From Malacoraja senta (lineage: Eukaryota), in contig CM075990.1 in the NCBI GenBank assembly GCA_038087875.1, forward strand, positions 12,154,001 through 12,218,000: DNA of 64,000 nucleotides. Direction: 5' to 3'. A program made the translations under genes and the position numbers. Positions 127 to 57,581 of the stretch are shown here, one piece after another; positions within the stretch are counted from its first letter, which is position 1; every line of letters begins with the position of its first letter. The notes below the pieces were generated by a model. The model made no database searches. It was given only the letters and a program-made list of their open reading frames with translations, and was not told the DNA's origin.

Positions 127-362
127 AGGGCCTATCCCAAGAGCATGCGACTGCATGCGGCAAGCGCGACCTGACGTGGTCGCTTGAGCCGTACGGTCTC
201 GTGGGGCCGGTCCCACTTCGATTGCCGGAGCTGTATGGAGTTGTGCGGAGCTGGTCCCGACATCGCGCGGGGCTCCGAAAAACTGACAGTGTTCAAAAAT
301 TCCGCGCGGCAACGGGCCTGCCGGCCCGCAGCCGCCTCGACGCCGTACGCACCGCCTCGATG
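127..362. mobile_element. Harbinger-type MITE, one end only (same family as 35962-36427, opposite orientation)
   Basis: TTA (124-126) followed by agggcctatccca. The body is the reverse complement of ~36165-36340. Inserted in a V-SINE. Confidence 0.75.
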
Positions 363-634
363 TGCTAGCTGTTCTCTTCACTGCCTGAACTGCTGATCAT
401 TTTCTACCGGTTATATTTTAATTTCATCACGCTGACTTCTGCAGTGTTTTGTCTTTGTGCGTTGGTCTCTCATGTTCCGGCTACTCATGCAGTACTGTGT
501 TCAGTTTGGCTCAGTCTGTTACAGGAAAGATGCCAGCAGGCTGTAAATAGACCAGAGAAGATTGGCAAGGATGATGCTAGGACTCGAGGTATCTGACCTA
601 TAAGGGGTTGGGCAGGCAAGGACTTGATTCCTTA

Positions 635-1036
635 AGGGCCTGTCCCACTTTCACGACTTAATTCAAAACCTCTGCCGAGTTTAAAGGACCTAAAAAAAAA
701 ATCAAGATCGTGGTAATCTACGAACTCCTACGACTATGTTCACGAACTCCAACGAGTATGGCTACGAATTACCACGACTATTTCGATGCCCTCCTTACGA
801 GTAAAAAGTTGCAATTTCTTTCATCCCGACCATTTTTTTACTCGTGGACATTTTTTATCGGGCTGGAAAAAACGTCCCGACTTACCTGATGCCACGTGTA
901 CCTACAGCTGGCGTAACGAGCCGCTACGATATATCTACGAACTCCTACGGACTCGTTACGAACATTCTGCGAGTTTGAATCAAGGGGAAAACCCGGGAGA
1001 ATTCGTGAATTACCTCGTGAAAGTGGGACAGGCCCT
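635..1036. mobile_element. Harbinger-type MITE (tacga-rich family)
   Basis: TIR agggcctgtcccactttcacga...tcgtgaaagtgggacaggccct with TTA TSD (632-634, 1037-1039). The empty site restores a CR1 fragment (gattccTTAgagagcaggaggctgagg). Confidence 0.88.
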
Positions 1037-2364
1037 TTAGAGAGCAGGAGGCTGAGGAGAGATCATATAGAGTTGTATAAAATCCTGAGGGGAATAGATA
1101 TATTGAATGTACAGAGTCTTTTTCCCAAGGTAACGAATCAAGAACTCGAGGGAATGGGTTTATGGTGAAAGCAGAAAGATTTAACAGGAAGCTCAGTTTA
1201 GATTTTTTAGTTATAGCATGGAAACAAGCTCTTCGACGCACCGGGTCCATGCCAACCCATGCACGAGTTCTGTCCGACACACTTGGGACAATTTATAGAA
1301 GGCAATTAACCTACAAACCTGTACGTCTTTGGAATGTGAGAGGAAAAAGGAGCAGTCGGAGTAAACCCACACAGTAACAGGGAGAAAGTACAAACTCCGT
1401 ACAGACAGCACCCGCAGTCAGGATCGAACCCCAGTCTCTGGTGCTGCAAGGCAGCAACTCTACCGCTGCGCCAATGTGCTGCCCCGAGTGGCAACTTTTA
1501 CATGCGGAGGGTGGTGGGTACATGGAATGAGCTGCCACAGGAAATAGTTGAGGCAGGAAACAATAAAAGAATGTAACAGACACTTGGGGCAGGTTCATGG
1601 ATAGGAACGGTTTGGAGGGCCATAGGGCAGACGCAGGCAGATGGGACGAGCTGGGATGGGGCATCTTGGTCGGCATGGGCGAAATGGGCTGAAGGGCCTT
1701 TTTCCCTGCTGTACGACTCTATGATTCTAAGTGCCCACTGTTCCTCCACTACTGCCTGAACGGTTGATCTTTTCCTGCTGGTGATGTCTTCATTTTGTAT
1801 TCCTGGCATCCACAGTGTTTTGCCTCGGGTACTCGTGTGCTGTCTCAGCTCATAGTCCTAAACTGCAATGTGCTCCTCGCTGGGGAATCGGAGGCATTGT
1901 GACTCCTCATGCAGTCTGATTGCTTTGGCTCGTGATAGTGAATGATGTCCCCAAACCTTGGTGCCTTGGTGTTGCAAATGAAAGGGTAAAAGGCTAATGT
2001 GGCTGAAGACAATTCAGTCCCCTAGCATTCTCTGTTGGTCTTTATTGTGTTTGACTTTGCAAATCTTGCAGCCTGATCGTGTGAGTCAATCCACTGGAGA
2101 GAATGGTCAGCAGTATCTGTTTTACTGCACGCTTTTAAACTGAAGATTGGCCACTGTAATATTGTTTAAACATTGCATATGTAGCAGACAAATGAAGATG
2201 TGGTGGTTCTTACACATGGGCTAATACTCTAGGATAACTAAACAAAGATAATTGAATTAGATCGTTGTTCAAGCGAGTTCGGATTGAACCTTCTGAAGAA
2301 GGGTCTTGACCCGAAACGTTGCCCATTCCTTCTCTCCAGAGATGCTGCCTCACCCGCTGAGTTA

Positions 2365-2609
2365 AGGGCCTGTCCCACTTTCACGACCTAATTCACGACC
2401 TTTTTTACTCGTGGACATTTTTCATCAGGCTAGAAAAACGCCCGACCTACTTGATGCCACGAGTACCTACGACTAGCATCACGACCTACCTACGTCCTAC
2501 CTACGACCTCTACGACCTCCTACGACCTCATGACGACCATGCTGCGAGTATGAGTCAAGGCAAACTCGGTTGAGGTCGTGAATTAGGTCGTGAAAGTGCG
2601 ACAGGCCCT
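2365..2609. mobile_element. Harbinger-type MITE (tacgac-repeat family)
   Basis: Long TIRs (agggcctgtcccactttcacgacctaattcacgacc) with TTA TSD (2362-2364, 2610-2612). The empty site restores cccgctgagTTActccagc of the PLE repeat. Confidence 0.88.
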
Positions 2610-2689
2610 TTACTCCAGCATTTTGTGTACCTTCGGATTGACTTTTAAGCACGCTTTGAGCGCTCAACACCGTGCCTGGGAGGTAGTCC

Positions 2690-4170
2690 ACCCCTACCAC
2701 CGAGCAGCAGATAATAATCCTGGATTCACCCCACGTTTGGAGAGCCCTGACCAGGGTTGACCCACGGAAAGCCCCAGGACCAGACAACATACCTGGTCGT
2801 GTGCGCAAGGAATGTGCTAACCAGCTGGCGGACGTCCTCACAGACATTTTCAACATCTCCCTGAGCAGAGTGCAGGCAGCAAATCCAACGTCACAGCACT
2901 TCAAGCAGAGTGCAGGCAGCAAATCCAACGTCACAGCACTTCAAGCAGAGTGCAGGCAGCAAATCCAACGTCACAGCACTTCAAGCAGAGTGCAGGCAGC
3001 AAATCCAATGCCACAGCACTTCAAGCAGAGGGCAGGCAGCAAATCCAACGTCACAGCACTTCAAACAGAGTGCAGGCAGCAAATCCAATGCCACAGCACT
3101 TCAAGCAGAGTGCAGGCAGCTAATCCAATGTCACAGCACTTCAAGCCGCCATGATCATCCCGGTGCCAGTAAAGTCATCTGTCTCCTGCCTCGATGGCTG
3201 CCGTCCCCGTGGCACTGACCCCACCGTGATGAAGTGCTTTGAACGGTTAATCGTGGGACTCATCAAGGATAGCCTCCCCACCTCACTGGGCCCCCACCAG
3301 TTCGCACACCGCCCTAACTGCTCCACAGAAGATGCCATCTCCTCCACCCTCCACGCAGTCCTCTCCCACATAGACAACAACAAAAACACCTACGCTCGAA
3401 TGGTATTTATTGACTTCAGCTCGGCATTCAACACGATCATCCCTGACTCAGAAGCTGGTGGGGAAGCTCTCCCTGCTCGGCCTCAATACCCCCCTCGACA
3501 ACTGGATCCTGGACTTCTCAACACATCCACCACAGTCAGTCCGTGTTAACAATAACACCTCAAACATCCTGAACACCAGAGCACCCCCCCCCCCCCCAAG
3601 ACTGTGTGCTTAGCCCACTACTATTCACACTACCTACCCACCACTGTGCCGGCAAACACAACACCAACCAGATAAACACATTTGCTGATGACACTACAGT
3701 GGTGGGCCTCATCAGAGACAACATCGAGACTGCCTACAGAGAGGAAGTGACGCAGCTTGTGAACTGGTGCAAAGACAACAATGAACGTCACCAAGACCAA
3801 AGAGATGATTGCCGACTTCAGGGGAACGCAGGCTGCCCACTCCCCCTGCACATCAATGGCTCCATCGTGAAGAGGGGTGAGCAACATCGAATTCCTAGGG
3901 GTGCACCTCGCTGATGACCTCGCCTGGTCTCTTAACACTACACACCTGGCCGGGAGGGCTCAACAGAGGCTGTACTTCCACAGGAGGCTGAAACGAGGGA
4001 GGCTTCCCCCACCCATCCTCTCTATGTTCTACAGAGGTACCGCGGAGAGTGTCGTGACCAGCTGCATCACCGTCTGGTACGGCAACCGCGCCGCATCAGG
4101 CAGGAAGACTCTGCAGAGATTAGTCAGCTCAGCGGAGAACCCTCTCCCATCCATTCAAGAGTTCAAGGCC
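2690..4170 (+). mobile_element. Rex1/Babar-like LINE RT fragment, decayed
   Basis: KAPGPD (in DNA), [72 protein letters not shown], with frameshifts. Confidence 0.85.
2864..3145 (+). repeat. 40-bp minisatellite, ~7 copies
   Basis: Unit agcagagtgcaggcagcaaatccaacgtcacagcacttca in direct tandem with few substitutions and no spacers. Confidence 0.95.
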
Positions 4171-4860
4171 ATGCACCAATTGGTACCGTGAGATTTGAAT
4201 GACCATATAACCATACGAATAAAAAGAACACAATGCACCATAGAATATAACATGAACATCCCCACACAGCAGAATCAACGTTCCCCACTGTGAGGGAAGC
4301 CAATGAAGTTCAGTCATCTTCCTCTTTGTTCACCCGTGGTCGGGGTCTTTGAGCCCTCCACAGTAGCCGCAACGGCGGCCCGATGTTCAAGCCCTCTTGC
4401 CGGGATGATGGAACTCCGGCGTCGGAACGTAAGAACACTCTCAGCGGCTTGGAGTTCCGAATCGGCCACTTCTTACCGGAGACCGCGGTTTCCGAAGTCC
4501 ACAGGCCGAGCTGGGCGGAGCTCCAACACAGGCGATCCCCGGTAAGGCATTGTCCTGCTCCACGACGGGATTCAGCGCTGCTCCGCCGCTGAAGCTCTGG
4601 CCGGTCTCCGGCAGGAAAGGCCGCGCCAATCCAGATGGTAGGCCGCGAGGGGGGGGGGGGCGAAGACGCTACTCGGAGAATAGTCGCATCTCGACCTTGA
4701 AGTGACTGGGAAACAGTTTCCCCCTTCCCCTCCCCACCTCCCCCACATAAAAACGTCTAAGAAACCTCCAGGAATATACTTTTAAACAGATTAAAAATAA
4801 CAAAAAGGGTGAAAGGACGAACAGACTGCTGGCGAGGCTGCCGCGCGGAGCGCCACCCGA
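4170..4860 (-). mobile_element. GC-rich non-coding interspersed repeat with a LINE-like 3' tail (unclassified)
   Basis: The reverse complement of ~4230-4350 aligns by eye with ~17230-17350 (gaacaaag..gga..ctgaactt..cacagtg..gatgtt..ttctat..tgtg). No coding capacity recognised. Confidence 0.5.
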
Positions 4861-4881
4861 TGACGTAATATCTGACAGTTA

Positions 4882-5200
4882 TAGCCCTGTCCCACGGTAC
4901 GAGTTCATTCCAAGAGCTCTCCCGAGTTAAAAAAAAATAAACTCGTGTTAAGCACGTAGAATGAACGTAGCGGGTACGTCGGAGCTCGGGGACGTCTCTT
5001 AGCGCTAACGGCAAGTACTCGGGAAGACTCGCTAATGGCAGGTAAGCACGGGAAGACTCGTGAAGATTTTTCAACATGATGAAAAATGTCCACGAGAGCC
5101 CCGAGTACCGACGAGTGGCCATTACCGTAAATCTCCGAATTCGAATCAGGGCAAACTCGGGAGAACTCTTGGAATGAACTCGTACCGTGGGACCGGGGTT
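4882..5200. mobile_element. Harbinger-type MITE (ctcggga family)
   Basis: Ends tagccctgtcccacggtacgag / ctcgtaccgtgggaccggggtt with TTA on both sides. Homologous to 10358-10656, 50789-51000 and 51299-51607. Confidence 0.85.
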
Positions 5201-5544
5201 TTAATTAGCACTTATATTAGCAGTTAATCCCATTTGACTTGTGCTGTTGTGGAGCCTAGGTGGTGTGATTTTTTTTTTGTTTTCCTTACCTCATTATATT
5301 GTTAGCCAACACAAAATAGTTAGTTTTGCATCGAGTTTCCATTTACATTCTGGACATTTTCAACATATGATGCCTCCGAAAAGCCTCCAACATTATTAAG
5401 GACTCCTCCCACCACTTCCATGGACTCTTTGTCCCTCTGCCCTCTGACATGAAGCACAGGAGCATCAAGGCCAGCACCACCAGGATGTGCAACAGCTTCT
5501 GCCTCCTGGCTGGTAGAATGATGAGCACCTTGCTACCCTCCAAC

Positions 5545-7063
<1,519 letters not shown>

Positions 7064-7346: not shown

Positions 7347-7518
7347 AGGGCCTGTCCCATTTGGGCGTCACGCAGATGGCGCGCGAAGATTTTGTACATC
7401 CCAAAATCCTGGGGCGCTGCGCGTGTCACTGCCTACGTCACCACGCACCATGCGCGCATAAGTGCGTCGTGACGCGTAAATTATGTTGCGCAAATGACGC
7501 CCAAGTGGGACAGGCCCT
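7347..7518. mobile_element. Harbinger-type MITE (tgacgc family), GTA TSD
   Basis: agggcctgtcccatttgggcgtca...tgacgcccaagtgggacaggccct flanked by GTA (7344-7346, 7519-7521). Homologous to 16722-16910. Confidence 0.85.
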
Positions 7519-10357: not shown

Positions 10358-10656
10358 AGGCCCTGTCCCACGATGCGAGTTTACCCAAGAGCTCTCCCGA
10401 GTTAAAAAAAATAAAATCAAACTCGTGGTACTTCATCACGAGTATTTTTTTACTCTTGGAAATTTTTCACACTATTGAAAAATCTTCACGAGTTTCCGCT
10501 TTTCCCGAGTACCTGCCGTTAGCATTACGAGCCGCTACGAGACGTCCACGAGCTCCGACGTACCCGCTACGTACATTCTACGTACTTACCACGAGTTTGA
10601 TATTTTTTTAAACTCAGGAGAGCTCTTGGGTAAACTCGTATAGTGGGTCAGGGCCT
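10358..10656. mobile_element. Harbinger-type MITE (ctcggga family)
   Basis: aggccctgtcccac...gtgggtcagggcct with flanks TTA/TGA. The body is homologous to 51299-51607. Confidence 0.82.
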
Positions 10657-10905: not shown

Positions 10906-11500
10906 TAAGTAAGTAAGTAAGTTTATTGGCCAAGTATTCACATACAAGGAATTTACCTTGGTGCTCCGCCCACAAGTAACAACATGACATACAGTGACAG
11001 TTATGAATAACTCAGAAAACACTAAATATTAATAATAATAAGACATTAATGATAAAACACCATTGATCAAGCATGTGAACCAACAAAATACCAGATCAAA
11101 GGGAGGCTACAGATTTTTGGCTGTTGAGTAGAGCAACTACTTGTGGATAAAAAACAGTTTTTATGTCTGGCTGTGGCAGCTTTGACAGTCCGGAGTCGCC
11201 TTCCAGAGGGAAGTGATTCAAAGAGTTTGTGGCCAGGGTGAGAGGGGTCAGAGATGATCTTGCCCGCTCGCTTCCTGGCCCTTGCAGTGTACAGTTCATC
11301 AATGGAGGGAAGGTTGCAGCCAATAACCTTCTCTGCCGATCGGACGATTCGCTGCAGCCTCCGGATGCCGTGCTTGGTGGCTGAGCCAAACCAGACCATG
11401 ATGGAGAAGGTGAGAACAGACTCTACGATGGCCGTGTAGAATTGGACCATCATTGCCTGTGGCAGATTGTGCTTCCTCAGCTGCCGTAGGAAGTACATCT
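10906..11500 (-). mobile_element. Rex1/Babar-like LINE 3' end with (TACT)n tail; near-identical shorter copy at ~61312-61632
   Basis: MYFLRQLRK..ESVLTFSIMVWFGS..DPSHPGHKLFESLPSGRRLR. gtttaa is duplicated at both ends within a PLE repeat. Confidence 0.85.
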
Positions 11501-14370
11501 GTTTAAACCAGCATCTTACACGGAACTATTTACATGCTGCACGACTGTGACTTTTTTCCATGGCTGATTTTAACGGTGGTGTCTTTTGCCTCACAATTGC
11601 ACCAATTTTTAAGAACGTTGAAAATGTCTCCAGCTAAAACTTTAACCAACAGGTGCAGTGTAAGATTCAAATAAATAATACAACAAAGACTGATGAGCAG
11701 TGGAACAATGCATGATTTATGTGCATAGAAATGCCCAGCGGGCCCGTAATTAAAATAAAATCCTGTATATAGTCAAGAAGCAACAACAACAACAGCGGAA
11801 AATAGACACCAAATGCTGGAGTAACCCAGCGGGACAGGCAGCGTCTCTGGAGAGAAGGAATGGGTGATGTTTTGGGCTGAGACCCTTCTTCAGACTGAGA
11901 GTCAGGGGGAGGAGACACAGAGATAAGGAGGGGTAAGGTGTGAAACTGGGACATCAAAGTGGGCTAAGATCAAGGAAAATGCACATAAGCTCAGGGAAGG
12001 TGGAAAGATCTTAAAGCCATCTGATCATTTCAAACTTGTCCTTTCTTTCCAGTGACTGCATTTTTATCCCTCATTTCATTGCACCATCGATAGAATAGAG
12101 AGTCAGAACTTTTTTTCCAGGGTGGAAATATCAAGGACTTGACATATGGGGCATAACTTTTAAGGAGAGAGTAGCAAGGTTTAAAGGAGATGGATGGGGC
12201 AAGTCTTTTTATACAGAGGGTTGTGGGTGCCTGGAATATGTTGCCAGGGGTGGTGGTGGAGGCAGATACGATCGTGACATTTAAGTGACTTTCATGTACA
12301 TGGATATGAAAGGGATGCATGGAAATGGCTCAATGCAGGCAGATGGGATTAGTCTATTTTAACATCATGTTTGATAAAGACATTGTGGACCAAAGGGCCT
12401 ATTCCTGTGCTGTATTGTTCGATGTGGTATAATTTAAATGCTTGCGTTATGCATGTACAACGCATGTATAATGCTTGCTTCAAGATCTTGTATTCCTGCC
12501 AAGTGGTAAAATTGACAACTCATTTGTCTTTACCTAGATTGGTGAGAGTCCAGGCAACAGGTGCAGGAGTAGGCCATTCGGCCCTTCGAGTAGTGAGTCA
12601 TTTAACAAAACACATTAGGGACAGCGGTAACTTCACTCGTTGCATCCTAGCCTGGCTCTTTTTTTTCAAATAAGTGCACAATTGCTGCCTGTACTGTCAC
12701 GAGAAGTACCGTATGAGGAGATTTGGTCTGCCGATGAGCACACTCTTGAACTTCTACAGGTGCACAGCAGAGAGCATATTAACTGGTTGCATCACGGCCT
12801 GGTTTGGCAACTCAAACTCCCAGGAATGACTGAGATTAGAAAAAGTAATCTGCCCGGTCCATCACGGGTACAGACCTCCCCACCATCTAAGGGATCTACG
12901 GGAGGCGGTTTCCAGCATTTTCCGTTTTTATTTCAGATTTCCACCATCTGCATTTGTTTGATTTCCAATTCGACTCAGGGTTTACAGGTGGGTCCGAATT
13001 TCCCAGGAACCAATCCAAGTTGCTTGGAGGGACTACATTTAAAGAGCGGCACTTCTGATATATGATGGACAGATTATCCCTGCCATTGCTAATTTCTTTG
13101 GCAGCTTCATTTCTAAACGTTGGTGTATTTGAGCAGGATTATCCAGTCTGATAATCAATAGTTTATGTATGATTTATGGAATTGATTGCATGTCAACTCT
13201 ATCCAAGAGAGTTCACAGTTATGAGGAAGAAGTTCCATTGATTCAGGAATTGAAGTGGGCGGTTTTGCAGATTAAAAATTAATCACTACTGCTTGGGTTT
13301 TAAATTAATTCATTACCAATGCTTGATTTTCCCCTTATCCCCCACCCCTCCCATTGTCGACAACTTCCGGCAGCTTCCAACAGCAAGAATAAAAGGATGT
13401 ACCTTTAGAAAGCAGATGAGAAGGAATTTCTTCAGTCAGAGGGTGGTGAATCTGTGGAATTCATTGCCACAGACGGCTGTCTGTGGAGGCCAAGTAAATG
13501 GATACCTTTAAAGTGGAGATGGACAGTTTTTGATTAGTATGGGTGTCAGGGGTTATGGAGCAAAGACAGGAGAATGGGGTTAGGGGGGAGAGATAGATCA
13601 GCCATGATTGAATGGCGGAGTAGACTTGATGAGCCGAATGGCCTAATTTGGAGATGCTGCGCGGAACAAGTTCTTCGGCCCACCGAGTCCACACATTAGT
13701 GACGATTTACATTGATACCAAGCCAATTAACCTACAAACCTGTAGTTCTTTGGAGTGTTGGAGGATGGAGTTTCCAGAGAAAACCCACACAGGTCACGGG
13801 GAGAACGTACAAACTATGTTACAGATAGCAACTGTAGTCAGGATCGAACCCGGGGCTCTGGCGTTGTAAGGCAGCAACTCTGCCAATAACTGCTGCTACA
13901 ACTCATTACTTGAACTATCATTGGGTATTGGTTGAATGCCCTTGATCCCCTAGAACTTAGCAACTTATAATAAGAACGTTACCGCAAACACGCAAGAAAA
14001 TGGACAATTATCTGAGACGCCTCTCCAGGAAATTATGGTGCAAAAAAAAATCTTGGGCAGTTTTCAGCTCTAAAAGTGGTTTATCATTATGTGGTTTTTT
14101 TGTTGTGACAATTTGCTGGGTTAATTTATTTTATCTTTTGAATCTTTTTCTGTAATTTGACCAGCAGAAGTAAAGTGATGTGAAACCTAACAACTCTGGA
14201 ATGGCATTGAATGGCAAGCAGCATCTGTGAGGAGAGAAGCAGTTTATAGTTCCAGTTGTGGAATGAATCAAAGTTGTTCGACGTGAAATATTAATTTTCA
14301 CTCTTCGCGGATGCTGCCTGACATATTGATTGTGTTTTGTTTCAGTTTTCCAGCATCTGCACACTTTTGA

Positions 14371-14590: not shown

Positions 14591-14689
14591 CACTTTTGAC
14601 AAAAGTCAGAAGTTACATTCATAGGTATTTTGCTGGGTTTTTTTTGGGGAATGCTTTTGTGTTAAATCTTTCCTTTCTCTTCCTTGCAG

Positions 14690-14884
14690 AACACACCGGC
14701 AAGGACACCGATATTCATAGTGAATGCCACGGATCGCGATCAGGGAACTGGGGGCAGTGTGCTGTATTCCTTCCAGCCCCCGTCACGCTTCTTCACCATT
14801 GACGGTGCCAGGGGAGTGGTGACTGTTCAAAGACCCCTGGATTACGAGACCACTCGAGCCTACCAGCTGCAAGTCAATGCGACG
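14690..14884 (+). CDS. cdh23: Cadherin-23 internal coding exon (extracellular cadherin repeat), 195 bp, phase 0/0
   Basis: Polypyrimidine tract plus ttgcAG acceptor (14688-14689) and GTatga donor (14885). Translates NTPARTPIFIVNATDRDQGTGGSVLYSFQPPSRFFTIDGARGVVTVQRPLDYETTRAYQLQVNAT, with cadherin DxD and LDYE motifs, closely matching vertebrate CDH23 as I recall it (NTPVGTPIFIVNATDPDLGAGGSVLYSFQPPS). Confidence 0.95.
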
Positions 14885-16721: not shown

Positions 16722-16910
16722 AGGGCCTGTCCCACTTGGCTGTCATTTGTGCGTCACGCAGATGGCGAGCGAAGATTTTGTACATCACAAAACCCTGCAA
16801 CGCCGAGCGTGGCCGCGCGTCACTGCCTATGTCATCGCGCACCATGCGTCGTGACGCGTAACGATGTTGCGTAAATTACGTGCAAATGACGGGCAAGTGG
16901 GACAGGCCCT
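16722..16910. mobile_element. Harbinger-type MITE (tgacgc family) inside a V-SINE head
   Basis: Perfect agggcctgtcccacttg TIRs and TAA TSD (16719-16721, 16911-16913). The empty site restores gtaaagcagTAActctacc. Confidence 0.88.
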
Positions 16911-19006: not shown

Positions 19007-19135
19007 GACCAGGATAAAGACCACCCACTCTCCACGTTGGCTAACCTGGCGATCACTATCACAGATATCCAGGACATGGACCCCATTTTCATCAACCTTC
19101 CTTACAGCACAAACATACATGAAAACTCCACACCT
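19007..19135 (+). CDS. cdh23: Cadherin-23 internal coding exon, 129 bp, phase 0/0
   Basis: tttcAG acceptor (19005-19006) and GTgagt donor (19136). Translates DQDKDHPLSTLANLAITITDIQDMDPIFINLPYSTNIHENSTP, in frame with the previous exon, with the CDH23-type linker DxQDMDPIF. Confidence 0.95.
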
Positions 19136-21444: not shown

Positions 21445-22440
21445 TTACACAGAACTTAAAATAGTTTCTGCAAACAATCCCGCATTAACAATAGGCCGAT
21501 GGTAAAAATGTTGAAACATCAACTCATTGGACCACCCGGCGACTGCGAGGATATGGTCGACAGGGACGTCTTTCGCCCTGGCCGCCGACTTTTCTGCTGC
21601 CCTAGTCAAGTGAGACGTAAATACATCAGTGTTAATACCAGCAGCTGTTAAGACTTATTTTATCCATCTGGAAATAGTCTGTACTGAAACTCTCTTGTGT
21701 GGTTTCTTGTGTGTAATCAACAACCCAGTTTCCATATTTCTCAAATTCTTTGTGACCTCCATGTATTGTAACAAATATGTCTTAACACAGAGACAAGGAT
21801 CATTTGGATATGCTGCTAGCACAATTTTAAATCCTGTCACACCTGCTTTGCTTTAGTAGGTCATAGATATAGAATGTAACCTTGTCTTCAGTTACTTCCA
21901 TCCTGTCTATTTGTAATTTGCCAAGTGTTTGCACTCGTTGTGTTGTCACTAATGCCATAAGCAGGACTACTTTCATACTGAGCTTGGCCAAAAGTAAAGA
22001 CACACTTGGTGACCATTCACGAAGTAGTTTCAGTACCACACTTACATCCCAGATTGTCATGTACCTAGGTTTCGGTGGTTTGGAATTAAAGATTCCTTTC
22101 ATTAATCTGGAAACAAGTGGGTGTGACCCAATTGAGTTTCTTTCTGAATCCAGAACCAAATATGAGGACAATGCACTTCTGGCTGAATTAATTGCACTAC
22201 AACTCAGACCTTCATCATAATAAAGTTTTGACAGAAATTCTAAACATTTGAAATATCTGCAGTACCATATTGCACATTCTTTTGTACACAGAACTCTTCC
22301 CATTTCTTAATATAAGAAAGGTACTGTTTTTGAGTGCTCTTCCTCCAGGCTGCCGTAAGCATGTCCACAGTATGCTCAGACAGTCCTCGCCCCAGAAAAG
22401 GCATTCTTAAAACCTGCAAATCAACAAATCCAAACGATCA
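21445..22440 (-). pseudogene. DIRS tyrosine recombinase, frameshifted (boundaries approximate)
   Basis: AINSARSALS, HPLVSRLMKGIFNSKPPKPRY..WDV, LLMALVTTQRVQTL. My translation of ~21490-21630 (-) gives FTSHLTRAA...ILAVAGWSNELMFQHFYHRP, containing the catalytic HxxR, W and Y positions. Confidence 0.88.
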
Positions 22441-24166: not shown

Positions 24167-24430
24167 ATCATAATTTGGATTGAATTCAATTCAAAATCCT
24201 TATATACTATTCAGAATTACCACATCTGAAGTAATCTTCTTCCAATTGTTATAGAAGAGACGTAATCTGCCTCCAACTTTTGGACTTAATCCGGTTAGTA
24301 TGTTCCCATGAGAACCAGGTCCACCTACCTCTTGAGTCATTTGAGTACCCTGAGATCCCTGGATTCTCCCGGAAGCACCCCCACTGGTTCTTGCTCCCGC
24401 TGCAGGCCGCCAGCTACGTCCCTGCGTTGA

Positions 24431-25375: not shown

Positions 25376-25912
25376 CGCTGGCGACTGTACCGGGGTTTAG
25401 AGGCGGTCGGTCGCTAACCGCAGACTCCCGACTTTCTGTCGGCTGAGTCGCTCGCCTCTTCCCCCTGCCCGTTTTTTTCCATGGCATCTGGAAAAAATCC
25501 CCACAGACCCACAGTAAACGGACCTGGAAAACATGAAAAAAGTTTCTACTTGTAGTTGAAAAACTACAAATCCACCTCACGTCCATTTGCGTCAAGGCGT
25601 CTGACGTAATGACGCGCAGGCGCACTGGCGGGGTTCTTCACGTAGTCACTCACGTGACTCCAAAGTAAAATTAATAGGAACCTGAAGGGGAAGTTTTTCA
25701 CACAGAGGATAGTGGAAATATGGAACGAGCTGCCAGAAGAAGTGGTTAAGGCAAATACTACAAAACCATTTTAAAGATATTTGGACTGCTACATGGACAG
25801 GGAAGGTTTAGAGGATTATTGGCCAAATGATGGCAAATGGGACTAGTGTAGATAGGACATCGTGGTTGGCATGAGCAGGTTGGGTCGAAGGGCCTGTTTC
25901 CATGCTATAAGT

Positions 25913-35961: not shown

Positions 35962-36427
35962 AGGGCCTGTCCCACGGGCATGCGACTCCAAGCGGCAAGC
36001 GCGATCTAACCGGAAGTGGGGGGCGCACGGGGGCCGCGCGGAGGTCGAGTGATCCCCGTACAGGGCCTGTCCCACGAGCATGCGGCTGCATGCGGTGAGC
36101 GCCACCAAACCGGAAGCGGGGGCCATGCGGAGGTCGAGTGACGTCAAGACGGTGCGTCCGGCGTCGAGGCGGTGCGTACGGCGTCGATGCGGCGCGCACG
36201 GCCTCGATGCGGCTGCGGGGCGGCAGGCCGTTGCCGCGTGGAATTTTTGAGCAGTGTCAGTTTTTCGGAGCCCCGCGCGATGTCGGGACCAGCTCCGCAC
36301 AACTCCATACGGCTCCAGCGATCGAAGTGGGACCGGCCCCGCGACCTCCGCGCGGCCCCCGCACGGCCCCCGCTTCCGGTTTGGTCGCGCCTGCCGCATG
36401 CAGTCGCATGCCCGTGGGACAGGCCCT
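35962..36427. mobile_element. Harbinger-type MITE (GC-rich gcatgc/gcgg family) with a duplicated left end
   Basis: TIR agggcctgtcccacgggcatgcgact at both ends, and a second internal TIR copy at 36062. Flanks TTA/TAA within the PLE repeat ctgagttactccagc. Confidence 0.85.
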
Positions 36428-37050
36428 TAACTCCAGCACTTTGTATCTATCTCTGCTATAAACCAGCATCTGCAGTTCTTTGTGACTATAGGCTTGTTCT
36501 GATGTGTGTTGAGTGTTTTTGCCATCGGTACAAGCTCTGTTAATTGATAAAAGCAATATTTCTCCTCACAAAGTAGATGGTTGATCAGGCTTCCATGGGA
36601 CTTTGTCTCTGTGTCTCTACATGAAGAGGTGTTGTTGGCATCGGTTGTTGTGGTAAGATTTGCAGGAGAGGGCATATCTCCAGGAGTGCTGGTATTTTCA
36701 GTGGAGGGAGGGGGTAAGGCTTCATGTGTCAGTGTTTACAAGGCAGTATTTAATGGTAAGCCATTGTGTGAACAGGATTTCACGATGTCAGTTATTGATT
36801 TTTACAAGCAATCCTCTGGGACTGGTGCAGTCAATTAAATTCACTGTCCTTCTTACTGATAGCTATGGGAAAGAGCAGATTAAAAACAATTTACAATGTA
36901 ATGCAAAACTCTACACATTCTCGATTTGTGTTATGAGGCTTTTGTAACATTTCAACAGAGATTGAAACCCACGCGGTCACTGGGTGAATATACAATCTCC
37001 GTACAGACAACACCTGTGGTCAGGATCGAACCCGGGTCTCTGGAGCTGTA

Positions 37051-37294
37051 AGGGCCTATCCCACTTGCCGATTTTTTCGGCGACTTCAGGCATCCTTGAC
37101 TAATGTATCCGGTAATCGAAAAAGTTGCGACGTGACGCGGCGTGATGACGTATGACGCGCGGTGATTCCTCAAGTATCGCAACATTTTTTCGCCCGCTGG
37201 ATTTTGAAATGTTCAAAATCTTTCGGTGACCCTGACACATCAGTCAATGACGCCGGCAGTCGACGAAAAAAATCGGCCAAGTGGGACAGGTCTT
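37051..37294. mobile_element. Harbinger-type MITE (tgacg family)
   Basis: agggcctatcccacttgccgattttttcg...cgaaaaaaatcggccaagtgggacaggtct with central palindrome gattttgaaatgttcaaaatc. The left flank is a V-SINE; no clean right TSD. Confidence 0.78.
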
Positions 37295-39814
37295 CTGTTC
37301 CAAGTTCCCCATGTTCTTCCTCTCGTCTGTTCTTTGCAAGGAGGCTCTCTGGGAGTGTCCATCCAAGCATCCTGAAGGAAACATCAGATAGACACAAAAT
37401 GCTGGAGTATCTCAGGGGGACAGGCAGCATCTCTGGGGAGAAGGAATGGGTGACGTTGCGGGTCGAGACCCTTCTTCAGACTGCGAGTCAGGGGAGAGGG
37501 AAACTAGCGATAGGGACGATGACACAGAACAACGAATGAAAGATAAAGAAACGTAAATGGACACTTCACATTTCGCAGGTAAAAGTAAAATGTAAGCTGT
37601 TTCAGCAGATAAGATGCTCGATGCCCCCTTGAAACCTTAGGGACTCAAAGCTTCGTTGGAGATTCTCAGCGAGTGCGTCTCTGTTTTTATACCTGGCAGT
37701 AGGCTTTTATGCTTCACAGAGAAAGCTGCTGAAACATGCTGAAGATTGTCCCCCTGAAGGTTAACCGGCCCTGACACAACTGTCAGATACTGTTTACTGC
37801 CTTTAAGAAAACAGAATGTCAGTTTTTCTCTGAACGAGAAATTCCCAGGCTGATTTAAATTAACTGCCATAAATTCTGGAAATGGGATGTTAAATATCAC
37901 ACGTTGCCTCTCTTTCCCCTGCTCCGCTCTATAATACTGTTGCTGATTTGTAAAACAATTACCGCAGTGACCTATGGCCACGAGAGACCATTTGCGTTCT
38001 TTCCCCACCCCCTCTGTGGTCTCTCTACATCGAAAGGTCAGTGGCCTTGGATTTATGGGTATCGCTGTCCAAGTCGAATTTTGATTCTGTAAGCTTGGTG
38101 AACGTGCTGCAAATTCCAGCTACTGCAGCAGAGCAGGCAACACATTTTTTTCTACTGTTTGATCTCAAGACAAGATAAGTGCTTTTAATAGCTGAGACCC
38201 TGGTGCGGTTCAGTAGCATTTATTGGCAGATTGTTGATTGTTTAGTTTAGAGATGCAATGCAGAAAGAGGCCCTTTGGCCCACTGAGTCCGCACCGACCA
38301 ACGATACCCGCACATTATCACCACCCTACACACACTAGGGACAATTTTACATTCATACCAAGCCAGTTATCCTACCAACCTGTACGTCTTTGGAGTGTGG
38401 GAGAAAACTGAAGATCTCGGAGAAAACCCACGCAGGTCACGGGGAGAACGTACAAACTCCGTACAGACAGCACCCGTGGTTAGGATCGAACCCGGGTCTC
38501 TGGTGGTGCAAGGCAGTAGCTCTACTGCTGTGCCACAGTGCCGCCCAATACAAAAAAATATTTGCTTCAATACAAGTATAGAGTCACACAGTATGAAAAC
38601 AGATCCTTCAGCCCAACAAGTCTGTGCTGGCCATCAAACATCCATTCATGCTAATCCCACTTTATTTTTCGCACATTCCCATTCACTCCTCCCAGAATCT
38701 ATCATTGACCTACATACTTGGGGAAATTCACGAGGCCATTTAACCACAATTTGTAAAAAAAACACCGTGAAATTATATCATAATATCATAATCATACGTC
38801 ATTGGCCAAGTATGTTCTGCAACATACGAGGAATTTGATTTGCCATATAGTCATACCATTAAAAACCAACAAAACACACAAAATACATTTTAATCTGAAC
38901 ATCCACCACAGTGACTCCTCCATGCGGTCACAGCGAGAACGTGCAAGCTCAATACAGGAGCCACCTGGATCAGATTTGAACCTGGGTCACTGCAGCTGAG
39001 AGGCTCATCTCATCAGAGTTGTTGATGCTGTGTTGTGCCTGAAGCTCTCTCCTGTAGTCCAACTGATTCCTGAAGGCAATTGAATGATTTAATACGGAGC
39101 TCCTTTGGTTTGATATTAGAAAACATACAGAAAAATTGCTGCTGATTTTTTGTTTAGAGATACAGCATGGAAACAGGCCCTTCGTCCCACTGAGTCCACA
39201 CCGACCAGTAATCACCAGTACACTAGTCCTTATCCTACACACATTCAGGAACGATTTACAGAAGCCACTTAACCTACAATCCTGTACGTCTTTGGAAAGT
39301 GGGGGGAAACCAGAGCACCTGGAGGAAACCCACGTGGTCACAGGGAGAATGCACAAACACCGTATGGACAGCACCCGTAATCAGGATCAAATCCAGGTCT
39401 CTGGCGTTGTAAGGCTGCAACTCTACCCATTCCTGAAACGTCACCTATCCTTTTTCTCCAGAGATGCTGTATGACCCGCTGAGTTACTCCAGTGCTTTGT
39501 GTCTATCTTTGGTAGAAACCAGCACCTGCAGTTCTCTGTTTCTGCATAATTGGCCTTTAATACTGATTAAGAAGTGAACATTGGCGAAGGACACCAGGGA
39601 CTCCTGTTTGGTGGGATCTTTGGCACCTATTTGATAGCGCAGACAGGGCTACAGTTTACCTCGTCAAACAGTGCATCAGTCCACTGTTCGAAGCAACATT
39701 TTTTAACCAAATGTGTCGGAAGGAACTGCAGATGCTGGTTTAAATTGAAGGTAGACACAAAATGCTGGAATAACTCAGTGGGACAGGCAGCATCGCTGGA
39801 GAGAAGGAATGGGT

Positions 39815-43649: not shown

Positions 43650-44500
43650 ATCAAATCAAAATCAAAAACTTGATTTGCCATTTGTGCTTACACACATAGA
43701 AACTCTTGTGCGGTTGTTCAGAGAGTCAAGTCAAGTCAAGTTAAAAAGACACACAGAAAGACACATAATCTATAAAACATATACTTCTCTAGAAATAAAA
43801 AAGAAAGTGCCTAAAACCCTATATGTTTTGAGGTGGATCAGGACATCAGTTCATTTTGTTTTGGCCAAGAGTCTCACTGTGGCAGGGAAGAAGCTCTTGA
43901 AAAAGCGTGTTCTGTTTGTGGCGATGCTGTCCGCTCGTCTGTGCCTGAGGTTGTATGTGCAGTTTTTGTGTTTGAGCAGGGAGTGAGCTGGATGTAGTGT
44001 GTCTCTGATGATTCTCTCTGCTCTTTTTTGACAGCGCTGTGTGTAGATTGTTTCCATGGAGGGAAGTTCCATTCTGATAATCCTCTCTGCAGTCTTTATG
44101 ACTCTTTGCAGAGCCTTCCTCTCTGTCTATGTGGTGTTTCCATACCACACCGTGATGCCTGTGGTGAGGATGCTCTCTATCAGTCCTTTGTAGACCTGGG
44201 TGAGAGGGCGACAGTGCAGACCAGCTTTTCTGAGCAGCCTGATGAAGTACAGTCTCTGCTGGGCTTTTTTCACAGCAGTGTTCAAAGTCCAGTTCAGATC
44301 TGATGTTACTTGTAATCCCAGGTACCTGTAACTGTCAGCCCTCTCCACCACAGTCCCCTTGATGGGGCTGCAGGGGGGGTGGATTTTTCCTGAAGTCCAT
44401 TATTATTTCTCTTGTCTTGTCTGTGTTGAGGCTTAGGTCGTTCACCTCACCATAGGCAAGAATGTCGTTCACCAGATTCCTGTAGCCCGACTCGTCCCGA
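43650..44500 (-). mobile_element. Rex1/Babar-like LINE 3' fragment
   Basis: YRYLGLQVTSDLNWT, KKAQQRLYFIRLLRK, IESILTTGITVWYGN, RFFKSFFPATVRLL, and a (tttga)n tail. Confidence 0.8.
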
Positions 44501-44750
44501 CTCGAAAACATCGATAACCTCGATAACATTGTCGAGGTTATCGATGTGTTTAAGAGTCTAATGATTGTTGGGAAGAAGCTCTTCTTGAACCTGGAGGTAC
44601 ATTGTTTGATCTCCTTTCCCTTCTTGCCGATGGTAGGAGTGAAGTGAGAGCATGGCCAGGGTGGTGTGGGCCTCTGATGATATTGGCCGCCCATGCAAAT
44701 TCTTCCTTTCCAACTAAGATTTCAACTATTTGTTTGCGATTGTTTTCCAG

Positions 44751-45140: not shown

Positions 45141-45490
45141 AGTACCTGTCCCACTTAGGCTATTTTTTAGGTGACTACAGGCGACTAGGCTGTCGCCAGG
45201 GTGTCGCCTGTATTGTCGTGAGTCGTCTCCTCAGTCGCCCAAAGAGTCGGAGCGTCTTTCTGGTCGCTGCTGGATTTTTAACATGTTCAAAATTTTTTGC
45301 CGACAGTGGGTTTGACGCCAATGAGCGTAGCTTGACTTCTCCTGACGTAGGTGCTGTCGTAGGTTGTCGCCAGGCGATGTAGGATGTCGCCGGTGCTGAC
45401 TTTGGTGAATTCCATTGGCGACTACCTACGTCAACCGGCGACAGGTAGAGGCGACTGAATTGTCTTCAGTTGTCGCACCAAGTCGTATCT
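45141..45490. mobile_element. Harbinger-type MITE, right end missing (gtcgcc/ggcgac family)
   Basis: TAA then agtacctgtcccactt, many gtcgcc/ggcgac motifs, and central ttttaacatgttcaaaa. Confidence 0.68.
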
Positions 45491-45809
45491 GTAACAATTT
45501 AAACTAGAAGCTATGTTTACTGAAAGTAGAGTGATCTCTCCTGCCGAATGCAGTCAGTGGAAGTTAGCCACATAACAGAGATTCTGGGGAAATCAAACCT
45601 TAGTCAGCTTCAGAAGAGTTCAAATGAAAGAATTGCGTAGTCACCTTCGTAATCTGAGTCATGAGTGTGGTGGTTAGGTTCCTTGTCACTTGTTCAGAAG
45701 GATGACAGATTTAAATGTGCACCCAGAAAAATCATTACAAGTATGCAGGCCAACACTTGGCATGAGTCAAGCTGTGAGGAAGAACAAGTGACTCAGACTA
45801 ACACAGAGA

Positions 45810-50788: not shown

Positions 50789-51000
50789 AACCCCTGTCCC
50801 ACGGTATGAGTCCATTCCAAGAGTTCTCCCGAGTTTGCCCTGATTCGAACTCGGAGATTTACGGTAATGGCCATACCGGGTAATGGCCATACCGGAGCTC
50901 CGACGTACCCGCTACGTTCGTTCTCCGTGCTTACCACGAGTTTGATTTTTTTAAAACTCAGGAGAGCTCTTGGAATGAACTCGCACCGTGGGACAGGCTA
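50789..51000. mobile_element. Harbinger-type MITE, internally deleted inverted copy of the 4882-5200 family
   Basis: aacccctgtcccacggtatgag...gtgggacaggcta with TTA on both sides. Short duplication ggtaatggccataccg at the deletion junction. Confidence 0.82.
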
Positions 51001-51298: not shown

Positions 51299-51607
51299 AG
51301 GGGCTGTCCCACTGTACGAGGTAATTCAAGAGCTCTCCCGAGTTTAAAAAAAAAATCAAACTCGTGGTAAGCACGTAGAATGTACGTAGCGGCTACGTCG
51401 GAGCTCGTGGACTTGTCGTAGCGGCTCGTAACGCTAACGGCAGGTACTCGGGAAACGCGGTGACTCGTGAAGTTTTTTCAGCACTGTGAAAAATGTCCAC
51501 GAGAGCCCCGAGTACCTACGAACGGCTATTACCGTAATTCTCCGAGTTCGAATCAGGGGAAAACTCGGGAGAACTCTTGAATTACCTCGTACAGTGGGAC
51601 AGGCCCT
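51299..51607. mobile_element. Harbinger-type MITE (ctcggga family) inside a V-SINE
   Basis: aggggctgtcccactgtacgaggtaattcaagag...ctcttgaattacctcgtacagtgggacaggccct with TTA TSD (51296-51298, 51608-51610). Confidence 0.88.
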
Positions 51608-54999: not shown

Positions 55000-55178
55000 C
55001 AGATGCTCCCCGATTTACGATGTTTCGACTCATGATATTTTGACTTTACGATGGTGCAAACGCTGGGTAATGGCAGCGAGCCGCAGCGCACGTCCCGTCA
55101 CGTGATCACATTGTATTAAATGCGTTTCCGACTTCCGATATTTTTGATTTACGATGGGTTTATTGGAACATAACCCCA
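55000..55178. mobile_element. Tigger/pogo-type (Tc1-mariner) MITE fragment resembling MER47/Tigger5
   Basis: TA then cagatgctccccgatttacgatg, with repeated (ac)ttacgat motifs and tacgatgggtttattggaacataacccca. The right TIR is missing. Family assignment is from recall. Confidence 0.6.
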
Positions 55179-56977
55179 AGCTGTATTTTCAGGGTCTCTG
55201 GTGCTGTAAGGTAGCAAATCCACTGCTGCATCACCGTGCCTCCCCACCTAGGGCCACGACATGGGTACGCAGTCTGGTGCAGTGTTGGTTTAGTTTGTGC
55301 GGAAACACAGTGCGGTACAGCGCTGTGAGGCAGCAACCCTACCGCTGTGCCCAGCAGGTTACAGGCTGGGGTGAGGAGATGAAGCATTGTCCTACACCAG
55401 TGGTTTCCAGACCATTATTGATCAATATTGTTTGAACTCGTGTAGCCTCTGGTGCATTTAACAAAATGTTTCTGAGAAGTAGAGGCCTGACCTCTCAACA
55501 ACCTATCCCTCCCAAGTGACTGTCACTGACTCTAAATCTTATTCACCCACAAAACAGTGAGTCAGTCAACCAAGATCAGAATTAAACAATCAATTGGCTT
55601 TCTACTCCCTGACTTGAGGAAATGATGTTTCTGCCTGAATGGTAAAGGCTTTGGAAAGTTTCAGAAAGCTTTTCACATTGTTTTTCATTCAATGTTGAAC
55701 CACTTGTATAGATTGCAGACTTTAGTTTGGATTGCCAATCAGATTTGTGAATCTTTAGTCTAAGTTCGTGCTATACGGCCATTTCAGGTGATTTGAGCTT
55801 GGATTTCTTCAGCTTCTTAGTTTGATTACACAGTCTTCCTTGGTTGTAGATAAATCCCACCACTAATACCTTGGAGTCAGGCTGTTATACTGCATAGAAA
55901 CAGAGCCATCGGCTCAATGTGTCCATGCCAACCAGGATGTCCCATCAATCTCAGTCCCATTTGGCCCATATCCCTCTAAACTTTCCCCATCCATGTACCT
56001 GTAAATTGAGCTCTAATACCTGCCTCAACTACCTCCTCTGACAGCTCGTTCCATACATGTTCACCAACTTGGTATGCCTTTGAAGTTTGGGAGGAAACCG
56101 GAGCACCCGGAGAAAACCCACACGGTTATGGGGAGAAGGTACAAACTCCGTACAGACAGCACCCGTAGTCAGGATTGAACCCGGATCTCTGGCGCTGTGA
56201 GGCAGCAACTCAACCGCTGCGCCACCATGCCGAGTTGACAGGGATGTAATGCATGGCGCTCGTAAGTGAGAGCGCTCTCTACCTGTCCCTGAGCATGCTG
56301 CTGTTTTTTTTCATGAGAATACTCTAATTTGAAGGCTTGAGTCTTGAATTGATCAGTTAGGCGTCCAAAAGCAGTTGGGCTGGAGACTGGGGCAGATGTT
56401 GAAGTTTAATCCAACAGAATCCTGATTCCAACCCTATTGGCTTCTTGGTCACATGGAAGACCAAGGTAGGTTGGGCAACCGAGCCGGTGGGTTTGGCAAA
56501 TTTAGTATTGAAAGGTAAAAGAAACCTTTTGATTTAATTAATTTTTCTAAACACTGGAAATGCCGGGTCCTTTGGGCTTCGGCAAGCTGCCAGTGAAAGG
56601 AGTTTTCTCTGGGATTTTCTATTTTTATTTCAGATTTTTAATGACTGCAATTTTTTTTTTGACAATTCTGGATCCATCTGTAAGCAAGGCCGAACAAGTT
56701 GAAAAGTAGTCGTCAACAGCAGGTTGATTGGCCAATTATATGTTCATAAGTGGTCACGGTGGCGCAGTGGTAGAGTTGCTGCCTGACAGTGAATGCAGCG
56801 ACGGAGACCCGGGTTCGATCCCGACTATGGGTGCTGTCTGTACGGAGTTTGTACGTTCTCCCAGTGATCTGCGTGAGTTTTCGCCGAGATCTCCCGCACT
56901 CCAAAGACGAACAGGTTTGTAGGTTATTTGGCTTGGTAAATGTAAAAATTGTCCCTAGTGGGTGTAGGATATTGTTA

Positions 56978-57581
56978 AGGCTCTGTCTTACCTGTTTGCG
57001 GTCATCGGTGGTGAAGCGCGGCGTCGCCGGTAGCGAGGACCGCGCGGCAACGGCGAGAGCGTCGAGCTTATCCACCGGAGCGCCGCACGGATGGTGCGCG
57101 GGGGCCGAGTTCATTCAAACACGGCGGGTCCCACGTGCTTGCGGTAAGTAAAAAAAGGGCAGGCCGATTGCGATGACGTCGGCCCGCCGCACGTGACTCA
57201 CCAACGGCGGCTGTGGCGGCTGCCGTCCAGATCGCGGCGCTGTAGTGGTGGCTGTGCCTGCGGCCGTGCAGCACACGTGCGTCACTGGCGGCGGCACGTG
57301 CCTCACTGGTGGAGGCTGTGGCAGTGGAGGCTTGACGCACGGCGCTCGAGCCATACTGGCGGCGGCCCGTGCGAGCGGCCGTGCCGCACTCGTGCATCAC
57401 TGGTGGAGGTTGTGCGGTGAGTATTAAGTTTTGGACATTGTCGATTTTATTTTAGCACCGTGCGGTGTTGGGAACACCGCCGCACGGCCCGGGAATTGTA
57501 CTTTCTCACGAGTGCGCGGTCTATGGCGGCAGATTCTTCCCGTTTCGCCGCCATAGACCGCAGACTCGTGAGACAGGCCTT
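56978..57581. mobile_element. Larger GC/CpG-rich non-autonomous element with Harbinger-like ends, inside a V-SINE
   Basis: aggctctgtcttac...gtgagacaggcctt with TTA TSD (56975-56977, 57582-57584). The SINE resumes seamlessly afterwards. Confidence 0.75.

What the first reader, a model, noticed from the sequence alone, without database searches (positions are those of the whole stretch)
127..57581. Thirteen CpG-rich MITEs share one terminal repeat but carry different family-specific internal motif codes
Seen: 13 elements (127, 635, 2365, 4882, 7347, 10358, 16722, 35962, 37051, 45141, 50789, 51299, 56978) begin or end with a variant of AGGGCCTGTCCCAC, mostly with 3-bp TTA/TAA duplications. Their interiors fall into about seven groups, each built from its own short CpG-containing motif in both orientations (tacga/tacgac, tgacgc, gtcgcc, ctcggga, gcatgc/gcgg). 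Established: 3-bp TWA TSDs typify PIF/Harbinger, and Harbinger3_DR uses a separate Myb-like protein that binds repeated subterminal motifs. Inference: a radiation of Harbinger families with a conserved transposase end signal and diversified Myb-like recognition motifs, i.e. a modular specificity system. I do not know whether it has been described in chondrichthyans.
Basis: partly seen in the sequence, partly recalled or inferred. Interest (0 to 1): 0.7.

Follow-up and report, generated by a model that had tools for sequence, protein, structure and literature searches.

The report
Harbinger mini-transposons with phased CpG arrays
Thirteen short, non-coding mobile elements in the introns of a shark-or-ray gene share one end sequence and carry CpG motifs that differ between families but sit at a similar spacing of about one DNA turn from the ends; they are likely Harbinger-type mini-transposons whose motifs would be docking sites for a transposon-encoded DNA-binding protein, a known design with an untested family-specific twist.

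Summary
The 13 elements are real: 23 terminal-repeat matches against 0.4 by chance, all inside them. Eleven have both ends, 8 of those an exact 3-bp duplication (TTA, TAA, once GTA), and paralogous empty sites confirm the 3-bp size. They lie in cadherin-23 introns of an elasmobranch and are most likely Tourist-like PIF/Harbinger MITEs. The 'seven independent codes' are overstated: interiors fall into 4-6 groups, six elements with supposedly different motifs align to each other, and motif enrichment holds in 8 of 13. That fits a protein-bound array of fixed geometry and variable letters, but no autonomous partner or Myb protein was found, so family-specific recognition is untested. Conserved end plus diversified subterminal repeats read by a second protein is already proposed for CACTA elements, and PIF-Harbinger is listed for whale shark. 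The scan noted a Harbinger MITE once in another shark-like genome, not this anatomy. Interest 0.37.

The parts
127..360 (+). Group III element, one end only (truncated); inner second terminal copy at 203-216; AT box centred near 290
   Evidence: 84% identical to 35962 reversed over 215 nt
635..1036 (+). Group I element, TTA/TTA, 31-nt arms, ACGA array with 10-12 nt gaps, degenerate AT box near 860
2365..2609 (+). Group I element, TTA/TTA, ACGACC array (7 copies with one arm removed), AT box near 2427; inserted in a short repeat with 22 empty paralogous sites
4882..5200 (+). Group I element, TTA/TTA, asymmetric first 4 terminal bases shared with 50789, AT box near 5076
7347..7518 (+). Group II element, GTA/GTA duplication, AT box near 7398
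10358..10656 (-). Group I element whose two arms are copies of the same family end (56-nt arms), TTA/TGA, AT box near 10473
16722..16910 (+). Group II element, TAA/TAA, inserted in a SINE-like repeat with 13 empty paralogous sites, AT box near 16784
35962..36427 (+). Group III element, TTA/TAA, 86-nt arms, duplicated outer end at 36062-36075, inner terminal copy at 36327-36340 followed by GGAG at 25/35/45, AT box near 36253
37051..37294 (+). Group II element (weak link), both ends, no target duplication, AT box near 37210
45141..45492 (+). Group II element (weak link), left end only, GGCGAC x9, AT box near 45284; right boundary approximate
50789..51000 (-). Group I element with the centre (AT box) deleted, TTA/TTA
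51299..51607 (+). Group I element, TTA/TTA, 47-nt arms, AT box near 51483
56978..57581 (+). Group IV element, degenerate ends, TTA/TTA, CGTGC x13, inner terminal-like copy at 57121, AT box near 57437; 4 empty paralogous sites
14690..14884 (+). Host context: cadherin-23 exon; the elements lie in the introns around it
   Evidence: PDB hit E 7e-34; 95% to a ray and 94% to a catshark cadherin-23

Best explanation
The 13 elements are short non-coding insertions with a shared 14-bp terminal repeat and 3-bp target duplications, likely non-autonomous PIF/Harbinger transposons whose helically spaced CpG motifs would be binding sites for a transposon-encoded Myb-like protein. Shown by sequence: ends, duplications, 4-6 related groups, a shared internal AT box, a common CpG register from the terminus, and ends that were duplicated or added within elements. 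From established PIF/Harbinger biology: a DDE transposase and a separate Myb/SANT-like protein are both needed in trans, and the latter binds the ends. Inferred: several copies of the Myb-like protein load on one face of the helix next to the terminal repeat and position the transposase; selection keeps the spacing while the letters drift step by step with the fast-evolving protein; slippage and arm copying spread a changed motif through the element. The AT box is inferred to be a site or bend shared by all families. How strictly motifs insulate families from each other is unknown; partial cross-mobilisation is likely. Confidence by step: Harbinger-type MITEs 0.9; arrays are protein sites 0.6; motifs act as family-specific codes 0.35.
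For: Terminal repeat 23 matches vs 0.41 by chance. Exact 3-bp duplication in 8 of 11. Empty paralogous sites fit when 3 bases are dropped (22, 13 and 4 sites for 3 of 13 elements; one single match at 2 bases). G precedes TTA in 7 of 10 sites vs 18% background, P 4e-4, like the extended target preference of PIF/Harbinger (PMC2836001, passages). By eye the repeat matches 9 of 11 bases of the mPing primer start in PMC2836001 and 8 of 14 of Xenopus Harbinger-N12A_XT. CpG pair spacing peaks at 11 and 22 nt (z 3.7, 3.3; 8 elements pooled). End-anchored CpG phase peaks at 20.5, 20.3, 20.9 and 21.4 + k x 10.8 in the four groups, agreement P 0.005, AA/TT in antiphase at 14.4-15.7. Leave-one-group-out: 22 of 24 ends score positive, 11 of 24 at P<0.05; register-shift control 3 of 3000 for 7 ends, 108 of 3000 for 4 ends. 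A matrix trained on other groups picks the same AT box as best site in 11 of 13 elements. At six aligned sites 2365 reads ACGAC where 635 reads another variant (by eye). Fish Harbinger Myb-like proteins are far more divergent than transposases yet track the same tree (PMC9179366, section 4.2).
Against: No autonomous element, transposase or Myb protein was seen: none in 149 reading frames scanned, no genome held, 0 of 27 outside loci with an inward-facing pair. Whole-interior phasing at 10.7 reaches P<0.05 in only 5 of 13 elements; groups III and IV peak at 8.75-9 nt instead. The period and the 7 representative ends were chosen after seeing the data, box anchors were set by eye, and shared ancestry alone could preserve a register. 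Box scores beat shuffles at P up to 0.05 in 8 of the 11 hits and are weak in 7347, 16722 and 37051. Motif enrichment fails in 5 of 13. Group III carries two different motif modules in one element. In rice, internal effects of mPing were not sequence-specific and tracked GC content (PMC9921582), and Ping and Pong proteins are interchangeable (PMC2836001).
Confidence: 0.6

Rival explanations
1. Same Harbinger MITEs, but the CpG/AT alternation is a structural signal (bendability or nucleosome positioning that brings the ends together), not a sequence code; letters vary freely as long as G+C and A/T blocks alternate each turn.
For: CpG and AA/TT are in antiphase in all four groups; letters are weakly constrained in groups II-IV; mPing internal effects correlate with GC content and the authors propose nucleosome effects (PMC9921582, passages).
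Against: Exact 5-6-mers recur 7-11 times in 2365 and 45141 (P<0.002), more specific than bending needs; the fitted period of 10.8-11.1 is longer than the roughly 10.2-10.5 expected for nucleosomal DNA (own knowledge).
Confidence: 0.2
2. The motif arrays are neutral by-products: one ancestral end with a roughly 11-bp repeat was inherited and re-amplified by slippage and arm copying, and CpG richness only reflects young copies in a slowly evolving genome. One or few transposase/Myb pairs move all groups through the terminal repeat.
For: Six elements align; tandem-like units in 2365, a local duplication in 50789 and a copied arm in 10358; CpG transitions between close copies are few (1 of 60, 3 of 39, 7 of 43, 7 of 74 CpG sites); review passages describe binding at the terminal repeats (PMC9179366, PMC2836001).
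Against: The register and the AT box persist between groups whose interiors no longer align, although interiors within groups are full of indels.
Confidence: 0.15
3. The elements belong to another cut-and-paste superfamily (Kolobok or piggyBac with TTAA, CACTA with 3-bp duplications, or another PHIS group).
For: Left junctions often read TTAA; subterminal motif arrays recall CACTA; no transposase was seen.
Against: Empty sites hold TTA once and fit a 3-base, not 4-base, duplication; ends do not start with CACT; the duplication is TWA, not CWG, ANT or AT as given for NuwaI, Pangu and ISL2EU (PMC4482050, passages).
Confidence: 0.05

Closest known systems
Tourist-like PIF/Harbinger MITEs (rice mPing; Xenopus Harbinger-N12A_XT; Caenorhabditis inopinata Harbinger-1M family)
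   Same: Short, non-coding, about 14-bp terminal repeat of similar letters, 3-bp TWA duplication, extended target preference, internal palindromic structure.
   Different: Here several non-aligning families share one end, one internal AT box and one CpG register; no such comparison appeared in the passages read.
Zebrafish Harbinger3_DR / Harbinger3N_DR (Sinzelle 2008; seen only through PMC3016246, PMC2836001, PMC9179366, PMC5339849; the paper itself was not held)
   Same: Two-protein model in which the Myb-like protein binds the element ends and brings in the transposase.
   Different: Targets a CWG-centred palindrome, not TWA; a single family; that it binds repeated palindromic subterminal sites is recalled, not read here.
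CACTA/En-Spm subterminal repeats read by TnpA (PMC2613891, passages)
   Same: Conserved terminal repeat, family-variable GC-rich subterminal motifs, a second divergent DNA-binding protein; co-diversification proposed there in 2008.
   Different: Different superfamily and termini; plant; no helical register described in the passages read.
Coral CMITEs (PMC2872659, passages)
   Same: An internal segment conserved across MITE families.
   Different: piggyBac-type TTAA elements; there the whole 75-nt interior is conserved and the ends vary, here only a roughly 20-nt box and the ends are conserved.

Membership tests
PIF/Harbinger group (PHIS), Tourist-like MITE | 3-bp TWA target-site duplication | tested here: met
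   7 of 11 exact TWA, 1 exact GTA, 2 with one mismatch, 1 none; 3-base size from empty sites
PIF/Harbinger group (PHIS), Tourist-like MITE | Terminal inverted repeats, mostly under 60 bp, first base A or G | tested here: met
   14-bp core, A first in 22 of 23 ends; arms up to 86 nt; criterion from PMC4482050
PIF/Harbinger group (PHIS), Tourist-like MITE | Short and non-coding, multi-copy | tested here: met
   172-604 bp, 13 in 64 kb (4047 of 63800 bases); no Pfam hit in frames over the elements
PIF/Harbinger group (PHIS), Tourist-like MITE | Insertion preference extending beyond the duplication | tested here: inconclusive
   G at -1 in 7 of 10, P 4e-4, but several sites are homologous repeat positions and not independent contexts
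PIF/Harbinger group (PHIS), Tourist-like MITE | Autonomous partner with DDE_Tnp_4 transposase plus Myb/SANT ORF and the same ends | not testable with these tools
   No genome held; none in window; outside scans gave only single chance matches
NuwaI-type / Harbinger3_DR-like elements | CWG target duplication | tested here: not met
   0 of 13 left flanks are CWG; criterion from PMC4482050 and PMC3016246
Kolobok / piggyBac | 4-bp TTAA duplication | tested here: not met
   No empty-site match when 4 bases are dropped; Kolobok criterion recalled
CACTA/En-Spm | CACT(A/G) termini | tested here: not met
   Ends start AGGG or variants
   Enriched in 8 of 13; motifs shared and graded between groups; two modules in one element
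   No Myb-like sequence from this lineage was available

The most novel reading that the evidence does not exclude
Elasmobranch Harbinger families use a fixed-geometry, variable-letter address: a constant terminal repeat and a constant internal AT box for the conserved transposase, and between them a once-per-turn array of 5-6-bp CpG motifs read by a family-specific Myb-like protein; whole end modules are captured and swapped, so one genome holds a library of orthogonal, retargetable transposon/adaptor pairs.
Probability: 0.25. Interest if true: 0.62.

Novelty: new member of a known kind. Interest (0 to 1): 0.37.

Why it matters
As annotation it is modest: it gives structural evidence for abundant, fairly young TWA-type Harbinger MITEs in an elasmobranch (6.3% of this window), where two surveys had reported Harbinger/PHIS absent from sharks or the elephant shark (PMC4482050, PMC9179366) and one genome paper lists PIF-Harbinger in whale shark by name only (PMC8455134). 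If the register and the box hold genome-wide, they give a concrete prediction for how the two-protein Harbinger complex sits on DNA and a natural series for asking why the Myb-like partner evolves so much faster than the transposase. If motifs are read family by family, this would be a source of orthogonal vertebrate transposon tools.

Tried and rejected
Genome-wide collection: no genome held. Orthologous empty sites and presence/absence polymorphism in the source species and relatives: no read or contig layout was obtained, so this stays open. Run search on 34000-38500: one holder at 0.83, one at 0.20, the rest small shares, none laid, so no evidence; no RNA holder listed. Terminal pattern in viral (2 loci), metagenome (14) and prokaryote (11) collections: 0 of 27 with an inward-facing pair; the one with 28 bp likeness lies in a bacterial reading frame. 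Idealised AT box in viral contigs: 0. Pfam on 149 frames (148 of the 163 stop-free frames of 82 aa or more outside the 5.3-7.0 kb tandem, plus one cadherin frame): only reverse-transcriptase-related, ALKBH8_N and cadherin hits. Rfam at gathering: 0. First box test was misregistered by one base between groups and was redone. Automated empty-site search found nothing for 10 of 13 elements at the threshold (35962 gave 13 sites). Methylation-sensitive binding as the reason for CpG cores: no support; the domesticated Harbinger Myb protein HDP2 bound methylated and unmethylated DNA alike (PMC5339849, passages). Terminal and box letters in supplements of PMC4482050 (3 files, one cut) and PMC9179366 (1 file): 0 hits; Table S1 gives repeat lengths, not letters. 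Sinzelle 2008 not held; Kapitonov and Jurka 2004, Repbase and Dfam not available, so prior cataloguing cannot be excluded. Ten paper searches showed no listing on these families, the box or the register; bioRxiv supplements are closed. Earlier-finding look-ups by sequence, place and words were empty; one search gave one note.
Full report
Context. The window lies in cadherin-23 introns: a 64-aa exon at 14690-14884 hits cadherin-23 structures at E 7e-34. Among the 120 listed of 161 relatives it is 95% identical to a ray (Narcine bancroftii), 94% to a catshark, 84% to the elephant shark and 83% or less to the rest, so the host is an elasmobranch. No whole genome was held.

Ends and duplications. 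The 14-mer matches 23 times with up to 2 mismatches against 0.41 expected, always within the 13 elements. Its inner nine positions are nearly invariant, the outer four vary, and 4882 and 50789 share their own asymmetric variant. Eleven elements have both ends; 8 of 11 have an exact 3-bp duplication (6 TTA, 1 TAA, 1 GTA), 2 differ by one base, 37051 has none. Three elements sit in repeats whose uninterrupted copies occur in the window; these fit when three bases are dropped (22, 13 and 4 sites; one stray match at two bases, none at four). For 16722, 16 of 18 empty copies read CAA where the occupied copy reads TAA, as expected for a TWA-seeking element. G precedes the TTA in 7 of 10 sites (P 4e-4). 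This matches the PIF/Harbinger definition in PMC4482050 (passages read) and excludes TTAA, CWG and CACTA types. By eye the repeat shares 9 of 11 bases with the start of the mPing primer in PMC2836001 (where the element starts in the primer is own knowledge) and 8 of 14 with Xenopus Harbinger-N12A_XT (supplement of PMC12676858).

How many families. With terminal repeat and internal box removed, interiors give group I (635, 2365, 4882, 10358, 50789, 51299; z 6-77), 7347+16722 (z 28), 127+35962 (z 60), weak links of 37051 to 16722 and 45141 (z about 4) and 56978 alone (blastn agrees). Motifs are graded: the commonest CpG context is ACGA or CCGA in most of group I, GCGA in 45141, ACGC in 7347 and 16722, CCGC in groups III and IV. 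With one arm removed, enrichment holds in 8 of 13 (strongest ACGACC x7 in 2365, GGCGAC x9 in 45141) and fails in 127, 7347, 16722, 35962 and 37051. Between 635 and 2365, six aligned sites read ACGAC in 2365 and another variant in 635 (by eye): a concerted shift, by selection or by homogenisation. Ends are rebuilt as blocks: 10358 has two copies of one arm, 35962 a duplicated outer end, and group III has an inner terminal copy followed by GGAG at 25, 35 and 45, unlike its outer GCATGC module.

CpG. Observed/expected is 1.06-1.53 against 0.47. CpG transitions between close copies are 1 of 60, 3 of 52, 3 of 39, 7 of 43 and 7 of 74 sites, against 9 of 226, 16 of 234, 3 of 169, 4 of 120 and 8 of 158 elsewhere: little to moderate decay, consistent with young copies.

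Shared internal box. Twelve elements show a T-run, A-run box by eye; 50789 has the centre deleted. A matrix trained on the other three groups picked this box, on either strand, as best site in 11 of 13 (not 635, 50789); 8 of the 11 reached P up to 0.05 against 500 shuffles, and the full matrix ranks 12 sites in 11 elements above any outside site (this last ranking is circular). Anchors were set by eye. Its distance from the ends varies.

Helical register. Pooled over 8 elements, CpG pairs are enriched at 11 and 22 nt (z 3.7, 3.3). Per element at period 10.7, 5 of 13 reach P<0.05, 3 more are near 0.05-0.07, 0 of 8 control stretches do, and groups III and IV peak at 8.75-9 over their whole interiors. 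Measured from the terminus (positions 16-80, 24 ends), the four groups peak at 20.5, 20.3, 20.9 and 21.4 + k x 10.8 (agreement P 0.005) with AA/TT at 14.4-15.7. Fitting on three groups and scoring the fourth, 22 of 24 ends are positive and 11 reach P<0.05, none in group IV (0.058, 0.059); the two negative ends are short left arms. Sliding each end randomly reached the observed value 3 of 3000 times for 7 ends and 108 of 3000 for one end per group. Period and representatives were chosen after looking, ends within a group are related, and common descent could carry a register, so this is a good lead, not proof.

Mechanism. Established: PIF/Harbinger needs a transposase and a Myb/SANT-like protein that binds terminal or subterminal DNA (PMC9179366 introduction; PMC2836001, PMC9392472, PMC7282668 and bioRxiv 10.64898/2026.05.26.728016 passages); the Myb-like proteins diverge much faster but follow the transposase tree (PMC9179366 section 4.2, read whole). 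Inferred: the phased motifs are sites for that protein on one helix face, geometry is kept and letters drift with the protein. Against strict codes: Ping and Pong proteins cross-function (PMC2836001) and mPing internal effects were not sequence-specific (PMC9921582 passages). No autonomous copy was found: none in 149 frames, 0 of 27 outside loci paired.

Known systems and novelty. Conserved terminal repeat, variable subterminal repeats and a divergent second protein were proposed to co-diversify in CACTA elements (PMC2613891 passages). Harbinger3_DR targets a CWG-centred site (PMC3016246 passage). On cartilaginous fish: reported absent from sharks (PMC4482050) and the elephant shark, with other species said to need analysis (PMC9179366); listed for whale shark (PMC8455134 passage); no mention in bioRxiv 10.1101/2025.06.08.657570 or PMC12361510 (term searches). 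Ten searches (listings only unless named above) showed nothing on these families, the box or the register, but Repbase, Dfam, Sinzelle 2008 and Kapitonov and Jurka 2004 could not be seen. One earlier scan note (e1-9086375) mentions a Harbinger MITE in another shark-like genome; not tested here.

Verdict. Observation partly confirmed; interpretation partly supported; new members of a known kind with two undescribed-looking anatomical features; interest 0.37; most novel reading probability 0.25, interest 0.62 if true.

Noticed in passing
window 14690-14884 and about 19010-19135 (+): Two consecutive cadherin-23 exons; the first confirmed by PDB and protein searches, the second read from translation only.
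   Followed up: partly
window 127, 51299, 56978; and 2365, 35962: Elements of different groups sit at what looks like the same TTA of one SINE-like repeat (three) and at the same TTA of another short repeat (two): apparent insertion hot spots. The first set is by eye.
   Followed up: partly
window 2293, 25913, 26207, 39842, 48440: The abundant short repeat that hosts 2365 and 35962 has a CTGAAGA-stem-GAAAC core like a minimal hammerhead ribozyme (5 exact matches); the link to Penelope-like elements is recalled; Rfam gave no hit at gathering score.
   Followed up: partly
window about 21830-25400 (-): Broken retroelement with an RVT_1 hit at 23553-23936 and neighbouring frames; the label DIRS-like is from recall.
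   Followed up: no
window 32200-33700 (+); 3124-4190 (+); 11070-11525 (-); 43850-44720 (-); 30249-30539 (-): LINE remnants: a 376-aa reverse transcriptase frame (E 4e-33) and several shorter pieces with RVT_1, zf-RVT or ALKBH8_N hits; family labels not tested.
   Followed up: no
window about 55000-55184: A separate CpG-rich element with CAG...CTG ends, TA flanks and repeated TTTACGAT, not of the AGGGCC type; possibly Tc1/mariner-like (recalled).
   Followed up: no
window about 5540-7050; 2870-3140; 58174-58373: A long CA-rich tandem array, a short tandem of about 47-bp units inside a LINE remnant, and a 200-base assembly gap.
   Followed up: no
window 37051-37294: Left flank is a SINE-like repeat cut at the junction while the right flank is unrelated and there is no duplication: likely a deletion next to the element.
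   Followed up: no
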